Positions 40,390 through 42,529 of a stretch of DNA of 64,000 nucleotides are shown here, one piece after another; the first letter of the stretch is position 1; every line of letters starts with the position of its first letter. Source of the stretch: a virus. The notes under the pieces were generated by a model. That model did not search any database, was not told where the DNA came from, and saw only the letters and a list, made by a program, of their open reading frames with translations. The position numbers and the translations under genes were made by a program. The stretch lies in IMG/VR virus record IMGVR_UViG_3300045988_122518. One strand, written 5' to 3'.

Positions 40390-40787
40390 TTGATAATGAA
40401 GCTGTAAGTCAAGCTAAAACTGATACATATGAAATTAGAGAACGAATTCCTATCGCTCTTTGGGATAAAGTAAGTGAAGATCTAACACGAGATCAATGCT
40501 ATTCTTATTGGCAATATTGCCTTGAATGTGTCCAGCAGATGGCTGACGCTTGGGAAGAAGTTAATGGTGAAAATCTTATTTGGGTTCCGGGCCATTATGA
40601 AAAAAAAGAAGAATCCAAGAGTGAAGATGTTCCAATTACTGAAGTAGTTAAAAAATGTGAGTGTTATCATTTAAGAGATGATAAAACCGCAGAATGTTGG
40701 GGCACTAAGGAACGCGAAATCTGTTCCTGTGGTGGCGATTCAAGATTTTGTAATTTTTATCATACCGGAGATAGAATTAGTGGTTAA
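40386..40787 (+). CDS. hypothetical Cys-rich protein
   Basis: Track ORF. Confidence 0.4.
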   Translation: MIDNEAVSQAKTDTYEIRERIPIALWDKVSEDLTRDQCYSYWQYCLECVQQMADAWEEVNGENLIWVPGHYEKKEESKSEDVPITEVVKKCECYHLRDDKTAECWGTKEREICSCGGDSRFCNFYHTGDRISG

Positions 40788-41277
40788 ACAAATTACTTAT
40801 TATAAAAATAAAAGCCTATTAGACTTACCTCCTAATATTGTAATTTGTCATCAAGTGAATTGTCAAGGCGTTATGGGCGCGGGTCTTGCCAAACAAATTC
40901 GTATTCGTTGGCCTGAAGTCTATATAGATTATAAAAAAACTATTGAAAACGCGGAAACGCAAGTCGCAGGATTAGAAAATCCACCTGATGACATTTTACT
41001 TGGTGCGGTTGCTTGCACTACTACCGTAGATGGTCATAGAGTAGCAAGTTTATTCGCCCAATATGATTACGGGTATGGCCCGCGCAGATATACTAATTAT
41101 GAAGCATTTGCTAGTTGTTTAGAAAATTTAAATAAATTAGTTCCGGGCTATGTTCCGATTGCTTTTCCTTATAAAATTGGGTGTGGTCTTGGTGGAGGAG
41201 ACTGGGATATTATTCAATTAATGATTAGAAAAATTCTCCATCACGAAGATGTTTATATCTGTCAGTTGGAGGATTGA
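40780..41277 (+). CDS. macro-domain protein (ADP-ribose binding/hydrolase)
   Basis: NIVICHQVNCQGVMGAGLAKQI matches the macro core (VNAAN...GGGV..AI); GTG start at 40780 overlaps the previous stop (alternative upstream start at 40678). Confidence 0.55.
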   Translation: MVKQITYYKNKSLLDLPPNIVICHQVNCQGVMGAGLAKQIRIRWPEVYIDYKKTIENAETQVAGLENPPDDILLGAVACTTTVDGHRVASLFAQYDYGYGPRRYTNYEAFASCLENLNKLVPGYVPIAFPYKIGCGLGGGDWDIIQLMIRKILHHEDVYICQLED

Positions 41278-41278
41278 A

Positions 41279-41785
41279 ATGAGCGTTGTCGCTGCTAAAG
41301 TTTATGATGATAGAATTGTAATGAGTGCTGATAGTATTCTTACTAATGGCTATGAAAAGGAACCTAATGTTAATTTTGCTAAGATTGCTAAGATTAACGA
41401 CATAATTCTTGGCGGAGTTGGTTATGGTGATGAACAAAGTCTAATGTGGCTTTATATGGAGAATCATCAGCCAGTTGAAGCTAATGAACGAGAAATTCTT
41501 AATTACATTATTGAATTTTCAAAATGGAAAAATACTCTTATTGGTGATGGATTTCTAAGAAATGAATTTCTTATTGCCTATAAAGGACATCTTTTCCATA
41601 TTTGTAAGTTTATGGTAAGAGAGATTAAAGATTATTTTGCTATTGGAGCGGGCGCTCCTTATGCAACAACCGCATTATACTTGAAGCATGATCCAGAAGA
41701 GTCAGTAAAGGTTGCATGCGATATTTGTTGTTTTGTAAGCGAGCCAATTAAAACTTTTATTCAAGAAAAAGGAGATAAGGAGTAA
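41279..41785 (+). CDS. HslV/proteasome-like Ntn-hydrolase peptidase
   Basis: N-terminal S-VVAAKVYDDRIVMSADS and AIGAGAPYATTA resemble HslV TTIV...ADS and GSGG.YA.AAA motifs; GGAGG ribosome-binding site before ATG 41279. Confidence 0.4.
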   Translation: MSVVAAKVYDDRIVMSADSILTNGYEKEPNVNFAKIAKINDIILGGVGYGDEQSLMWLYMENHQPVEANEREILNYIIEFSKWKNTLIGDGFLRNEFLIAYKGHLFHICKFMVREIKDYFAIGAGAPYATTALYLKHDPEESVKVACDICCFVSEPIKTFIQEKGDKE

Positions 41786-41857
41786 TTCTTATCTCCTTTT
41801 TGATTTTTTTAAAAAATTATTATATAATATTTATATAAAAAGAAAGGTGATATTATT

Positions 41858-42085
41858 ATGAATTATATTGTTTCTAAAGAAAGACTTCTTGAGCTTCTTA
41901 AAGCTGAAAATGAGCTTAATGTTCTTGAAGGGGATGGTGTTGATAACTGGACATGGTATATGGAAGGCCGAAGACAGTATCTTAAAGAAGGCGCTGAAAT
42001 GTATGGTGTCAATATTGATGACAATGAAGATTTTGATTTTGAAGATTTAGCTGAATTAGATCTTCAAAACTTTGAGGAAATTTAA
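41858..42085 (+). CDS. hypothetical acidic protein
   Basis: Behind a promoter/UTR cassette. Confidence 0.35.
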   Translation: MNYIVSKERLLELLKAENELNVLEGDGVDNWTWYMEGRRQYLKEGAEMYGVNIDDNEDFDFEDLAELDLQNFEEI

Positions 42086-42529
42086 ATGATTAATAAATTT
42101 GAAGGAGATTTTGCTTTTTTAAGCAACTTTTTTTACTCTCCAATTACAATAGAAGGAAAAAGATATCTCACGGTAGAAAACTATTTCCAGGCAATGAAAG
42201 CAGCGAACCCCGGCGAGGCAGAAGAAATTAGGCTGGCTCCTACTCCTGGCAAATCCAAGAGATTAGGAAGACATTGCGTAATTCGTAAAGATTGGGAAGA
42301 CATTAAAGAAGATATTATGTATAAAGGCGTAAAAGCTAAATTTATGCAAAACCCAACCTTGCGGACTGCCCTTGAAAAAACCGGAGAAGCTTGGCTTGAA
42401 GAAGGAAACACTTGGTGCGATAATACTTGGGGAGTCTGTCATTGTATTAAGTGTCAAGACAAAATGGCATATAACAAATTAGGGAAAATTTTAATGAAGG
42501 TGAGAAAAGAATTAAGGGAATCAGATTAA
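42086..42529 (+). CDS. NADAR-domain protein (YbiA-like ADP-ribosyl glycohydrolase)
   Basis: GDFAFLSNFFYSPI...YLTVENYFQAMKA signature of the NADAR/DUF1768 family. Confidence 0.6.
   Translation: MINKFEGDFAFLSNFFYSPITIEGKRYLTVENYFQAMKAANPGEAEEIRLAPTPGKSKRLGRHCVIRKDWEDIKEDIMYKGVKAKFMQNPTLRTALEKTGEAWLEEGNTWCDNTWGVCHCIKCQDKMAYNKLGKILMKVRKELRESD

What the first reader, a model, noticed from the sequence alone, without database searches (positions are those of the whole stretch)
40780..42529. Macro-domain and NADAR proteins encoded close together: two ADP-ribosylation erasers, likely anti-defence
Macro domains remove protein and nucleic-acid ADP-ribose. NADAR proteins have been reported to reverse guanine ADP-ribosylation of DNA by DarT-type toxins. 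A phage carrying both, within 1.3 kb, suggests a counter to host ADP-ribosyltransferase-based immunity such as DarTG. An HslV-like peptidase lies between them.
Basis: partly seen in the sequence, partly recalled or inferred. Interest (0 to 1): 0.55.

Follow-up and report, generated by a model that had tools for sequence, protein, structure and literature searches.

The report
Phage macrodomain plus NADAR hydrolase pair
A large gut phage encodes, 0.8 kb apart, two enzymes that strip ADP-ribose groups (a macrodomain and a NADAR protein); both belong to families already shown in other phages to defeat NAD+-based bacterial immunity, so this is a credible but fairly ordinary counter-defence pair.

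Summary
Window 40780-41277 encodes a macrodomain and 42086-42529 a NADAR protein.

The anti-DarTG reading is only partly supported. The NADAR keeps all catalytic residues and is 41% identical to AdfN of phage Bas32, a validated anti-DarTG1 factor. The macrodomain is not DarG- or AdfM-like at the catalytic position: it has Gln where they have Lys. It belongs to the phage family that includes Adpp, an ADPR-1''-phosphate phosphatase of NAD+-reconstitution operons that counters RES NADases. A Gln-type relative, SCO6735, does cleave thymidine-linked ADP-ribose.

Outside this phage's own clade, macro and NADAR lie within 6 kb in 13 lineages. Ten of these place the pair inside a Prs-like/Nampt-like/NAD-synthase (NARP1-like) operon. 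Neither the window nor about 20 kb of flanks in relatives holds such genes, so here the pair is orphaned. It sits in an early, RNA-repair-rich region and is split over two transcription units.

Macro/NADAR co-occurrence in phages and both counter-defence roles are already published. This is a new member of a known kind, of modest interest.

The parts
38411..38439 (+). Promoter-like site TTGATT-N17-TATAAT in front of transcription unit 1 (119-aa ORF, RNA ligase, 63-aa and 133-aa ORFs, macrodomain, HslV-like)
   Evidence: The same motif occurs 10 times in the window, all on the + strand, against 0.15 expected.
40780..41277 (+). Macrodomain protein, 165 aa. ALC1-like class, Gln type (H24, N27, Q94). 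Same family as the NARP1-associated phage macrodomains (Adpp).
41279..41785 (+). Proteasome-beta/BPH/HslV-like Ntn hydrolase, 168 aa. Ser2, Asp18 and Lys35 are conserved. Its start lies 1 nt after the macrodomain stop codon. Probably a bystander.
   Evidence: No conserved linkage to macro or NADAR.
41766..41801 (+). Intrinsic terminator-like hairpin (16 pairs plus a T run) ending transcription unit 1
41800..41828 (+). Promoter-like site TTGATT-N17-TATAAT in front of transcription unit 2
41858..42085 (+). T7 gp5.9-like small acidic protein, 75 aa (21 Asp+Glu against 6 Lys+Arg). Putative RecBCD inhibitor. Its stop codon abuts the NADAR start codon.
   Evidence: Pfam PF25708 34.7 bits against 24.5, and PHROG 6234 4e-11. 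Composition.
42086..42529 (+). NADAR protein, 147 aa. Glu type at the diagnostic position (E106). Catalytic E31, K38, D112 and W115 are present. 41% identical to AdfN of phage Bas32.
42512..43333 (-). 822-bp homing-endonuclease insertion. Its ORF (42533-43261, minus strand) has one in-frame TAG. Present in the window and L005, absent in L001 and L006. It supplies the last 5 codons of the NADAR gene and separates NADAR from a 65-aa membrane ORF (43352-43549) that otherwise follows it directly.
34527..34847 (+). Context: cREC_REC (cyclic-phosphate-processing receiver) protein, a third predicted ADP-ribose-derivative or RNA-end processing domain, 6 kb upstream
   Evidence: Pfam 2e-17. Role as predicted by Iyer et al. 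2022.
38835..40211 (+). Context: RNA ligase in the same transcription unit as the macrodomain
   Evidence: Pfam RNA_ligase 27.6 bits (cut-off 27) and PHA02142 OB-fold. Similar to phage RNA ligases.

Best explanation
These are two independent, early-expressed ADP-ribose-releasing hydrolases from known phage counter-defence families. They sit in an anti-defence and RNA-repair gene block of a phage whose closest relatives assemble at about 113-197 kb, from gut metagenomes and probably infecting Bacillota.

The NADAR is an AdfN-type N-glycosidase. It most likely removes ADP-ribose from guanine bases (possibly also cytosine) that DarT1-like host ADP-ribosyltransferases place on phage nucleic acid. 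It is co-transcribed, and probably translationally coupled, with a gp5.9-like RecBCD inhibitor.

The macrodomain is a Gln-type ALC1-like hydrolase of the Adpp/SCO6735 kind. It removes the group on the 1'' carbon of ADP-ribose. The most likely substrate is the phosphate of ADPR-1''-phosphate made by RES-type NADases. The alternative is thymine-linked ADP-ribose made by DarT2.

The pair descends from an NAD+-reconstitution operon (nicotinamidase, Adps-like, Namat-like, macro, NAD synthase, NADAR) that relatives still carry. In this lineage it has been uncoupled from those genes.

Shown here: folds, family membership, catalytic residues, gene order, and conservation of context.
Inferred: substrates, timing of expression, and benefit to the phage.
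For: NADAR
- Pfam 1.5e-27.
- E31, Q35, K38, R62, D69, W70, E106, D112 and W115 are invariant across 12 phage homologues. They map onto the PnNADAR catalytic residues E43, K50, E125, D130 and W133.
- It is 41% identical, 109 bits, E 2e-36 to Bas32 bas32_0066, which is AdfN^Bas32. That protein neutralises DarT1 and rescues three phages from DarTG1.
- Every NADAR tested so far hydrolyses guanosine-linked ADP-ribose in vitro. YbiA-type NADARs also act on cytidine-linked ADP-ribose.

Macrodomain
- High-confidence macro fold, closest to BT1257, Poa1p, TARG1 and DarG.
- H24, N27 and Q94 are (near) invariant in the family.
- Q94 aligns with the essential Gln85 of SCO6735 and with the Gln of NARP1-linked phage macrodomains.
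- The family profile matches the validated Adpp of Vibrio phage Gary (hhalign P 99.3, E 2e-20) better than PhiKZ AdfM (E 2e-14).
- It is 35% identical to the NARP1-embedded macrodomain of Vibrio phage 1.063.O, which is listed in the aRES preprint's Table S1.

Context
- 37 loci outside the clade have both genes within 6 kb, and these form 13 lineages. Ten of the 13 have the order Namat-like, macro, then NAD synthase and NADAR in either order.
- The nearest such relatives, L015 and L017, also share the RNA ligase (71%) and the HslV-like gene (67%) with the window.
- The gene order macro, HslV-like, gp5.9-like, NADAR is conserved in the 13 relatives (91-99% macro identity) whose fetched sequence spans it; a 14th, L004, ends before gp5.9-like.
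- Terminator-promoter cassettes of one phage promoter family define the two transcription units.
- The neighbours are a RecBCD-inhibitor homologue and RNA-repair genes.
Against: - No biochemical data exist for these proteins.
- The macrodomain's substrate is not resolved by sequence. Pairwise scores to Adpp (46 bits), Mtb DarG (44), BT1257 (41), AdfM (39) and SCO6735 (38.5) are all similar.
- Adpp needs Adps and Namat to counter aRES. No such genes are in the 64-kb window, nor in about 10 kb beyond each end in relatives.
- The NADAR passes NCBI's cut-off for 'riboflavin intermediates N-glycosidase' (98 bits against 73.7).
- E. coli YbiA and T4 gp30.3 did not rescue cells from DarT1 when expressed alone, despite in vitro activity.
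- The host is unknown, as is whether it carries DarTG or RES systems.
- 'Early' expression is inferred only from sigma-70-like promoters.
Confidence: 0.5

Rival explanations
1. Strict dual anti-DarTG module. The macrodomain acts like DarG2 or AdfM and removes thymidine-linked ADP-ribose made by DarT2. The NADAR acts like DarG1 or AdfN and removes guanosine-linked ADP-ribose made by DarT1. Together they would protect phage DNA from both DarTG subtypes.
For: - AdfN and AdfM are published precedents.
- The NADAR is 41% identical to AdfN^Bas32.
- The macrodomain hits the PADLOC DarG model at 6e-13 and DarG structures.
- Gln-type SCO6735 cleaves thymidine-ADPr faster than DarG and protects against DarT.
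- In this lineage the pair is kept without any NAD+ salvage genes nearby, which argues for a NARP-independent benefit.
Against: - The catalytic Lys of DarG and AdfM is replaced by Gln.
- The NCBIfam DarG score of 43 bits is far below the 250-bit cut-off.
- The PADLOC DarG model hits NARP1-embedded macrodomains as well or better (L015 7e-17), so that hit does not discriminate.
- The family profile is closer to Adpp than to AdfM.
- Of the 13 other lineages with the pair, 10 have it in an NAD+ operon, one (L054) beside NAD synthase only, and two with no NAD+ genes nearby; no defined anti-DarT context was seen in any.
- The two genes lie in different transcription units.
Confidence: 0.25
2. Accessory enzymes of an NAD+-reconstitution pathway encoded elsewhere in the unseen part of the genome (roughly 105-130 kb). 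The macrodomain (Adpp) would convert ADPR-1''-phosphate to ADPR. The NADAR would release ADPR from an N-glycosidic NAD+-derived product. Both would feed Adps and Namat to rebuild NAD+ depleted by host defences.
For: - The tight operon context in 10 of 13 other lineages.
- 34 of 79 Namat-like loci have a macrodomain of this family within 3 kb.
- Adpp has been validated experimentally.
- RyDEP shows that other ADPR-releasing accessory enzymes exist in NARP1 operons.
- NADAR neighbourhoods with NAD+ salvage genes were noted earlier.
Against: - No PncA, Adps, Namat, NadE, NMNAT or Nudix homologue is in the 64-kb window, nor in the 10-kb flanks of relatives.
- None of the ten clade contigs (65-197 kb) is among the 80 best Namat-like loci in IMG/VR, which run down to 57% identity, although 357 weaker matches were not shown.
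- No substrate is known for a NADAR in NAD+ reconstitution.
Confidence: 0.15
3. RNA-repair helpers. After host nucleases cut tRNA, an NAD+-dependent 2'-phosphotransferase (KptA/Tpt1) yields ADP-ribose 1''-2'' cyclic phosphate. cREC would open the cyclic phosphate, the macrodomain (Poa1p role) would remove the 1''-phosphate, and the NADAR would process a related by-product.
For: - The macrodomain shares a transcription unit with an RNA ligase.
- cREC_REC, an RlaP-like nucleotidyltransferase, three calcineurin-like phosphoesterases, an AAA_33 kinase and a TROVE-like protein lie within 14 kb.
- L053 and L060 have the order macro, RtcB, two ORFs, NADAR.
- NADAR lies near the RNA ligase in 14 of the 75 non-clade NADAR-seeded loci (19 of all 80).
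- This role was predicted by Iyer et al..
- Poa1p is a close structural match.
Against: - No KptA, sirtuin or ART gene is in the window.
- ATP-dependent Rnl-type and RtcB ligation does not generate 2'-phosphate junctions (established biochemistry of these ligases).
- No NADAR has ever been shown to act in RNA repair.
Confidence: 0.1

Closest known systems
AdfN (anti-DarT factor NADAR), especially AdfN^Bas32 of Escherichia phage IrisVonRoten (Bas32); Johannesman et al. 2025, PMC11825919
   Same: Both are orphan single-domain phage NADARs of about 147-149 aa. They are 41% identical over the full length (E 2e-36). They share the SNF, E..Q..K and EGNxWxDxxWG motifs, including the Glu at the diagnostic position.
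   Different: It comes from a different phage group and probably a different host phylum. The window protein carries a CxCxxC insertion that Bas32 lacks. Its homologues at 45-55% identity often sit in NAD+ salvage operons. Activity has not been tested.
Adpp, the ADPR-1''-phosphate phosphatase of NARP1-AP (Vibrio phage Gary KNV71_gp137); Osterman et al. 2026 preprint, 10.64898/2026.01.28.702374
   Same: Both belong to the same Gln-type phage macrodomain family, sharing the HQxNC motif, the GQY..G loop and IGCGLxGGDW. Identity to Gary is 30%, and 35% to another Table S1 member. The profile match has P 99.3 and E 2e-20. Closer homologues (45-48%) lie directly after Namat-like genes.
   Different: It is not within two genes of Adps and Namat, which is how the family was defined. 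No NARP1 genes were found in the window or its flanks.
DarG macrodomain and phage AdfM (PhiKZ gp104); PMC13309987
   Same: Both have the ALC1-like macro fold, the conserved Asn (N27 here, N23 in AdfM) and the GVMGxG phosphate loop. Identity to AdfM is 25% (E 4e-9).
   Different: The catalytic Lys (FPTK) is replaced by Gln (FAQY). There is no DarT-binding domain. It falls far below the NCBIfam DarG cut-off.
SCO6735 / BT1257 subclass of ALC1-like macrodomains; PMC9411070
   Same: Both have Gln at the catalytic-Lys position, which is essential in SCO6735, plus a conserved His and Asn. BT1257 is the best structural and profile match (TM 0.80, 6e-20).
   Different: Identity is only 23-24%. The N-terminal half (NCQGVMGAG) resembles DarG and AdfM rather than SCO6735 (NDLGGWGKG). 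SCO6735 is a bacterial, DNA-damage-induced protein.
E. coli YbiA (riboflavin-intermediate N-glycosidase; PDB 2B3W)
   Same: Both have a bare NADAR core without extensions and carry Glu at the subfamily-defining position. The window protein passes the TIGR02464 cut-off.
   Different: The match is weaker (71 bits) than to AdfN^Bas32 (109 bits). The window protein is phage-encoded and sits in a counter-defence context.
Macro/NADAR co-occurrence and fusions in DNA viruses; Iyer, Burroughs, Anantharaman and Aravind 2022, PMC9503650
   Same: That paper reports non-random co-occurrence of Macro and NADAR in phage genomes. It also reports neighbourhoods with NAD+ salvage and RNA-repair genes, and likely early expression.
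   Different: Here the two are separate genes in adjacent transcription units. That paper gave no experimental substrates.

Membership tests
NADAR superfamily (Pfam PF08719) | Profile match above the curated threshold | tested here: met
   97.3 bits against 35.1, E 1.5e-27. YbiA structure 6e-19.
NADAR superfamily (Pfam PF08719) | Catalytic and ADPr-binding residues (PnNADAR E43, K50, E125, D130, W133) | tested here: met
   E31, K38, E106, D112 and W115 are invariant in 12 homologues. Residue mapping follows.
YbiA subfamily of NADAR | Glu (not Asp or His) at the PnNADAR E125 position, and no N-terminal fold extension | tested here: met
   E106 in the motif LEEGN. The protein is 147 aa and the domain starts at residue 2. 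TIGR02464 scores 98 bits against 73.7.
AdfN (phage anti-DarT factor NADAR) | Phage-encoded orphan NADAR homologous to a validated AdfN | tested here: met
   41% identity, E 2e-36 to Bas32 bas32_0066. No DarT-like gene is nearby.
AdfN (phage anti-DarT factor NADAR) | Removes ADP-ribose from DarT1-modified DNA and restores plating on DarTG1 hosts | not testable with these tools
   Requires biochemical and plaque assays.
DarG / AdfM-type macrodomain | ALC1-like macro fold with an ADP-ribose pocket | tested here: met
   AlphaFold pLDDT 93.5. Foldseek matches to DarG 5m3e and 5m3i at E about 1e-9, TM 0.70.
DarG / AdfM-type macrodomain | Catalytic lysine (TaqDarG K80; FPTK motif, also present in PhiKZ AdfM) | tested here: not met
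   Gln94 occupies that column in both the profile alignment and the MAFFT alignment.
DarG / AdfM-type macrodomain | Equivalog-level similarity and a DarT-binding C-terminal domain (DarG only) | tested here: not met
   NCBIfam NF048014 scores 42.9 bits against a 250-bit cut-off, and only residues 24-62 match. The protein is a single 165-aa domain.
Adpp (NARP1-AP macrodomain phosphatase) | Homology to the NARP1-associated macrodomain set (Table S1 of the aRES preprint) | tested here: met
   35% to Vibrio phage 1.063.O, 30% to Gary Adpp; profile P 99.3, E 2e-20; shared Gln loop motif.
Adpp (NARP1-AP macrodomain phosphatase) | Encoded within two genes of Adps and Namat | tested here: not met
   No Adps, Namat, NadE, PncA or NMNAT homologue in the window at tblastn E<=1, nor by Pfam. 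None in 10-kb flanks of relatives. The feature is met in relatives L015, L017 and others.
Adpp (NARP1-AP macrodomain phosphatase) | Dephosphorylates ADPR-1''-phosphate | not testable with these tools
   Requires an enzyme assay.
SCO6735 / BT1257 subclass | Gln at the catalytic-Lys position, with conserved His and Asn | tested here: met
   Q94, H24 and N27 are invariant or nearly so in 60 homologues.
SCO6735 / BT1257 subclass | Extended 'mobile loop' after the Gln | tested here: inconclusive
   The loop is 2 residues shorter than in BT1257 and about the length of DarG's in the MAFFT alignment. No structure-based alignment was made.
HslV / BPH proteasome-like peptidases | Ntn-hydrolase fold of proteasome beta subunits | tested here: met
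   pLDDT 94.1. BPH TM 0.84, E 1e-12; HslV E 2e-9.
HslV / BPH proteasome-like peptidases | N-terminal Thr1 nucleophile with Asp17 and Lys33 | tested here: inconclusive
   Asp18 and Lys35 are invariant, but the residue after Met is Ser2, nearly invariant in 53 homologues. Ser could serve as the nucleophile; this was not tested.
HslV / BPH proteasome-like peptidases | HslU-type ATPase partner (HslV only) | not tested
   No HslU-type ATPase turned up in the family scans of window ORFs. A AAA/nSTAND3 protein at 999-2138 is 39 kb away and was not examined as a partner.
T7 gp5.9 RecBCD inhibitor | Profile match above threshold; small acidic protein | tested here: met
   PF25708 34.7 bits against 24.5 and PHROG 6234 4e-11. 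21 acidic against 6 basic residues. Only residues 5-36 match. RecBCD binding is not testable here.

The most novel reading that the evidence does not exclude
The NADAR may be a third, still uncharacterised accessory enzyme of phage NAD+-reconstitution operons. In many relatives it sits directly beside the Adpp-type macrodomain or the NAD synthase gene, in the order nicotinamidase, Adps-like, Namat-like, macro, NadE, NADAR. In that role it would hydrolyse an N-glycosidic ADP-ribose conjugate made by an unrecognised NAD+-consuming host defence. The released ADPR would then be available for NAD+ resynthesis. This would parallel Adpp against RES NADases and RyDEP against Thoeris signals. The orphan macro/NADAR pair in this window would be the minimal 'detoxifying' remnant of that system.
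Probability: 0.15. Interest if true: 0.65.

Novelty: new member of a known kind. Interest (0 to 1): 0.3.

Why it matters
If the reading is right, this widespread gut phage carries erasers for two chemically different NAD+-derived adducts next to a RecBCD inhibitor. That adds a Bacillota-type gut phage lineage to the short list of phages with AdfN-like and Adpp- or AdfM-like factors.

The more useful lead comes from the relatives. NADAR genes are repeatedly built into NARP1-like NAD+ operons beside the Adpp-type macrodomain. The published NARP1 and NARP1-AP work read here says nothing about a NADAR in these operons.

The orphan pair in this window offers a natural test. It can show whether these hydrolases have a benefit that does not depend on NAD+ resynthesis.

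Tried and rejected
- No close cultured relative: a nucleotide search of 38800-44400 against 50,697 phage records found only the homing endonuclease and weak RNA-ligase matches.
- Pfam alone for the macrodomain is below threshold, so profile and structure evidence was needed.
- Treating a PADLOC DarG hit as evidence for anti-DarT function was rejected, because macrodomains embedded in NARP1 operons hit the same model as well or better.
- NAD+ salvage genes in this phage:
  - tblastn with PncA, Adps, Namat, NadE, NMNAT and RtcB from relatives found nothing in the window at E<=1.
  - A Pfam scan of 49 further ORFs found none, and no KptA, SIR2, ART or Nudix either.
  - The 10-kb flanks in relatives had none.
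  - A Namat-seeded IMG/VR scan did not return the clade's contigs among its best 80. This is not conclusive, because 357 weaker matches were not listed.
- Functional linkage of the HslV-like gene to macro or NADAR was rejected. Outside the clade it is only in L015/L017-type loci, at a different position, and homologues in other large phages have unrelated neighbours.
- E. coli genomes contain no nucleotide-level match to the NADAR gene.
- Supplementary tables of the AdfN paper were not available, so AdfN^Bas32 was identified through the Bas32 = IrisVonRoten naming.
- General amber recoding as an explanation for the in-frame TAG in the endonuclease gene remains unresolved. A CTA-anticodon tRNA exists, but TAG ends 11 of 64 long ORFs.

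
Full report
**What is there**

The stretch 40780-42529 holds four closely packed + strand genes.
- A 165-aa protein starts at GTG 40780. A GGAGA site lies 8 nt upstream, and the gene overlaps the stop of the preceding 133-aa ORF.
- A 168-aa protein starts at 41279, one base after the first gene's TGA.
- A 75-aa protein runs from 41858 to 42085.
- A 147-aa protein starts at 42086, immediately after the previous TAA.

The window is clearly phage DNA.
- Almost all genes are on one strand. It carries 15 tRNA genes, topoisomerase II subunits, DNA ligase and PhoH.
- Near-identical sequence occurs on IMG/VR viral contigs of 65-197 kb (most 113-197 kb) and on gut metagenome contigs.
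- No cultured phage is close. The best matches to the topoisomerase are about 43% identical, in uncultured human-faecal phages and phages of Bacillota.

**Checking the domains**

The NADAR assignment is unambiguous.
- Pfam PF08719 gives 1.5e-27, and the E. coli YbiA structure gives 6e-19.
- An alignment of 12 phage homologues keeps S13, N14, E31, Q35, K38, R62, D69, W70, E106, D112 and W115 invariant.
- These map onto the ADP-ribose-contacting and catalytic residues of the Phytophthora NADAR structure, including the Glu that defines the YbiA subfamily.

The macrodomain is below Pfam's threshold on its own (17.9 against 22 bits), but other evidence confirms it.
- PHROG 335 matches at 1e-38.
- 866 homologues were found, many already carrying PF01661.
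- A profile search of solved structures hits BT1257 at 6e-20, SCO6735 at 1e-15, Mtb DarG at 5e-15, Poa1p at 4e-12 and TARG1 at 1e-10.
- A confident AlphaFold model (pLDDT 93.5) has BT1257, Poa1p, TARG1 and DarG macrodomains as its best Foldseek matches.

The gene in between is a proteasome-beta-like Ntn hydrolase.
- PHROG 1040 matches at 3e-19.
- The model has pLDDT 94.1, and its best match is BPH (TM 0.84), then HslV and 20S beta subunits.
- Ser2, Asp18 and Lys35 are conserved in 53 homologues.

It matches the T7 gp5.9 RecBCD-inhibitor family above threshold and is strongly acidic.

**Anatomy of expression**

A strong hairpin terminator (41766-41801) is followed at once by a TTGATT-N17-TATAAT promoter (41800-41828).
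- This promoter, with a nearly identical A/T-rich spacer, occurs ten times in the window, always on the + strand, against 0.15 expected.
- The macrodomain and the HslV-like gene therefore end one transcription unit, which begins at 38411 and includes an RNA ligase.
- The gp5.9-like gene and the NADAR form the next unit.

An 822-bp homing-endonuclease insertion follows.
- It is present in the window and in L005 but absent in L001 and L006.
- It begins 18 nt before the NADAR stop codon and supplies a replacement C-terminus of the same length.
- It separates the NADAR from a 65-aa membrane ORF that otherwise follows it directly.

**Which macrodomain?**

DarG, TARG1 and the phage factor AdfM use a catalytic Lys in an FPTK motif.
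- In both the profile alignment and the multiple alignment, the window protein has Gln94 in that column.
- The Gln is nearly invariant in its family.
- Gln at this position is the hallmark of the SCO6735/BT1257 subclass. There Gln85 is essential, and the enzyme cleaves thymidine-linked ADP-ribose on ssDNA and protects against DarT.

The same Gln loop (GQY..G) characterises the macrodomains that Osterman et al. list as neighbours of NARP1 genes.
- They showed that one of these, Adpp of Vibrio phage Gary, is an ADPR-1''-phosphate phosphatase.
- Adpp lets NARP1 overcome RES-domain NAD+ phosphorolysis.
- The window protein is 30% identical to Gary Adpp and 35% identical to the Table S1 protein of Vibrio phage 1.063.O, which lies between Adps and Namat.
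- Its family profile matches Adpp (E 2e-20) better than PhiKZ AdfM (E 2e-14).

The PADLOC DarG model does hit the window protein at 6e-13. It hits NARP1-embedded macrodomains equally or better, so it does not discriminate. The NCBIfam DarG score is far below its cut-off.

**Which NADAR?**

Phage NADARs from three clades (T4, Bas32, Bas60) have been shown to counter DarTG1 by removing guanine-linked ADP-ribose.
- Bas32 is phage IrisVonRoten.
- Its NADAR, bas32_0066, is 41% identical to the window protein over the full length (109 bits, E 2e-36). That is a stronger match than to E. coli YbiA (71 bits).
- All NADARs tested hydrolyse guanosine-ADPr in vitro, although YbiA and T4 gp30.3 do not rescue cells from DarT1 when expressed alone.
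- YbiA-type enzymes also remove cytidine-linked ADP-ribose.

**Context in other phages**

Fourteen close relatives (macrodomain 91-99% identical) were fetched; the 13 whose fetched sequence spans the region keep the same four-gene order.

Among 70 unrelated macro-bearing viral loci:
- 14 have a NADAR within 6 kb;
- 36 have a Nampt/NAPRTase-like gene immediately upstream of the macrodomain, usually with a Prs-like gene, an isochorismatase-family gene and NAD synthase.

Among 75 unrelated NADAR-bearing loci, 21 have a macrodomain within 6 kb, and all 21 also carry the Namat-like and NadE genes.

The 37 non-clade loci with both genes form 13 lineages.
- Ten have the order Namat-like, macro, then NadE and NADAR in either order.
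- One has NadE only.
- Two have none: L053/L060, with macro, RtcB, two ORFs, NADAR; and L051.

L015 and L017 also share the RNA ligase (71%) and the HslV-like gene (67%) with the window, so they are real relatives that still have the NAD+ operon.

The window has no homologue of any of these NAD+ genes, and no KptA, sirtuin, ART or Nudix.
- The same holds for 10 kb beyond each end in relatives.
- The clade's contigs are not among the 80 best Namat-like loci in IMG/VR.
- The unseen remainder of the genome, roughly 105-130 kb given relatives' assemblies of about 170-197 kb, cannot be excluded.

The HslV-like gene shows no conserved association with either hydrolase.

**Local neighbourhood**

Within 14 kb upstream and 4 kb downstream lie:
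- a TROVE-like protein and a major-vault-protein-like protein;
- a cREC_REC protein and an RlaP-like nucleotidyltransferase;
- three calcineurin-like phosphoesterases and a ParE-like protein;
- the RNA ligase and an AAA_33 kinase.

This is the RNA-repair and ADP-ribose-processing gene mix described computationally by Iyer et al. 2022. They also reported that Macro and NADAR co-occur in DNA-virus genomes more often than chance, occur as fusions, and neighbour NAD+ salvage genes.

**Interpretation**

The most economical reading is two separate hydrolases that each release ADP-ribose from a different NAD+-derived adduct. Both would be expressed from host-type promoters as part of an anti-defence block.
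- I commit to the NADAR acting as an AdfN-type remover of base-linked ADP-ribose, at roughly even odds.
- I commit to the macrodomain acting on the 1'' substituent of ADP-ribose. An Adpp-like phosphatase is somewhat more likely than a thymidine-ADPr glycohydrolase.
- Retention of the pair without NAD+ resynthesis genes nearby argues that at least one of them has a direct, NARP-independent benefit.
- The NAD+-accessory rival (0.15) and the RNA-repair rival (0.1) depend on genes not seen here.

**Novelty**

Each element has a published, experimentally supported counterpart: AdfN 2025, AdfM 2026 and Adpp 2026. The co-occurrence itself was described in 2022. This is a new member of a known kind.

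The unexplained part is why NADAR genes are so often built into NARP1-like operons. That observation comes from the relatives rather than from this window.

Noticed in passing
window 6603, 26280, 28176, 30694, 33315, 38411, 41800, 43560, 44640, 60755 (+ strand): There are ten copies of a promoter-like element, TTGATT-N17-TATAAT, with a nearly identical A/T-rich spacer, all on the + strand (expected 0.15). Several follow hairpin terminators directly. This looks like a phage-specific early or middle promoter family.
   Followed up: partly
window 67-26230 (tRNAs); 7663-7752; 42797-42799: There are 15 tRNA genes, including one with anticodon CTA, which reads TAG. The homing-endonuclease ORF (42533-43261, minus strand) has a single in-frame TAG. 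Yet TAG ends 11 of 64 long + strand ORFs, so amber recoding, if any, is not general in this region.
   Followed up: partly
window 28244-29812 and 30761-33259: A TROVE-like protein (DUF2828/DUF7788, PHROG 'RNA-binding protein') lies next to an 832-aa protein with major-vault-protein shoulder and repeat domains (1e-21). This is an unusual pairing for a phage.
   Followed up: no
window 34527-34847, 35461-36267, 37386-38120, 38835-40211, 43621-44340, 45095-46170: An RNA-repair-style gene block: cREC_REC, an RlaP-like nucleotidyltransferase (borderline), three calcineurin-like phosphoesterases, an RNA ligase and an AAA_33 kinase. No KptA or sirtuin is in the window.
   Followed up: partly
window 38130-38405: A 91-aa ParE-toxin-like protein (Pfam 9e-6, above the gathering score) is encoded just upstream of the transcription unit that holds the macrodomain.
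   Followed up: no
window 42419-42475 (NADAR residues 111-130): The NADAR has an insertion, GVCHCIKCQDKMAYN. About half of the phage homologues have it, and AdfN^Bas32 and YbiA lack it. Its presence co-varies with His or Cys at residue 111, which suggests a small zinc-binding knuckle.
   Followed up: no
L015:3013-7681, L017, L018, L028, L052, L058, L066, L191, L229-L241: Many viral contigs share an operon: isochorismatase-family protein, Prs-like (Adps-like), Nampt-like (Namat-like), macrodomain, NAD synthase, NADAR, and sometimes NMNAT. In some the macrodomain and NADAR are directly adjacent. The role of NADAR and NadE in such NARP1-like operons is not addressed in the NARP1 and NARP1-AP papers read here.
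   Followed up: partly
L023-L042 type loci, about 3019-4227: An RtcB RNA ligase gene sits between the Adps-like and Namat-like genes of the NAD+ operon. In L053 and L060, RtcB lies between the macrodomain and the NADAR. This is a recurrent physical link between RNA-repair and NAD+-reconstitution genes.
   Followed up: no
window 41279-41785: The proteasome/BPH-like family has Ser rather than Thr as the residue after Met1, with Asp18 and Lys35 invariant. This suggests an active Ser-Ntn peptidase of unknown target. Homologues occur in many large metagenomic phages, in varied contexts.
   Followed up: partly
window 40386-40787: A 133-aa protein with nine Cys, clustered at the C-terminus, has no Pfam, PHROG, NCBIfam or PADLOC match. 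It overlaps the macrodomain start and is conserved in all close relatives.
   Followed up: no
window 999-2138; 26975-28153; three unlocated ORFs: A AAA/nSTAND3 ATPase and an Eco57I-like DNA methylase are present. Three ORFs carry Mtd_N (major tropism determinant N-terminal) domains.
   Followed up: no
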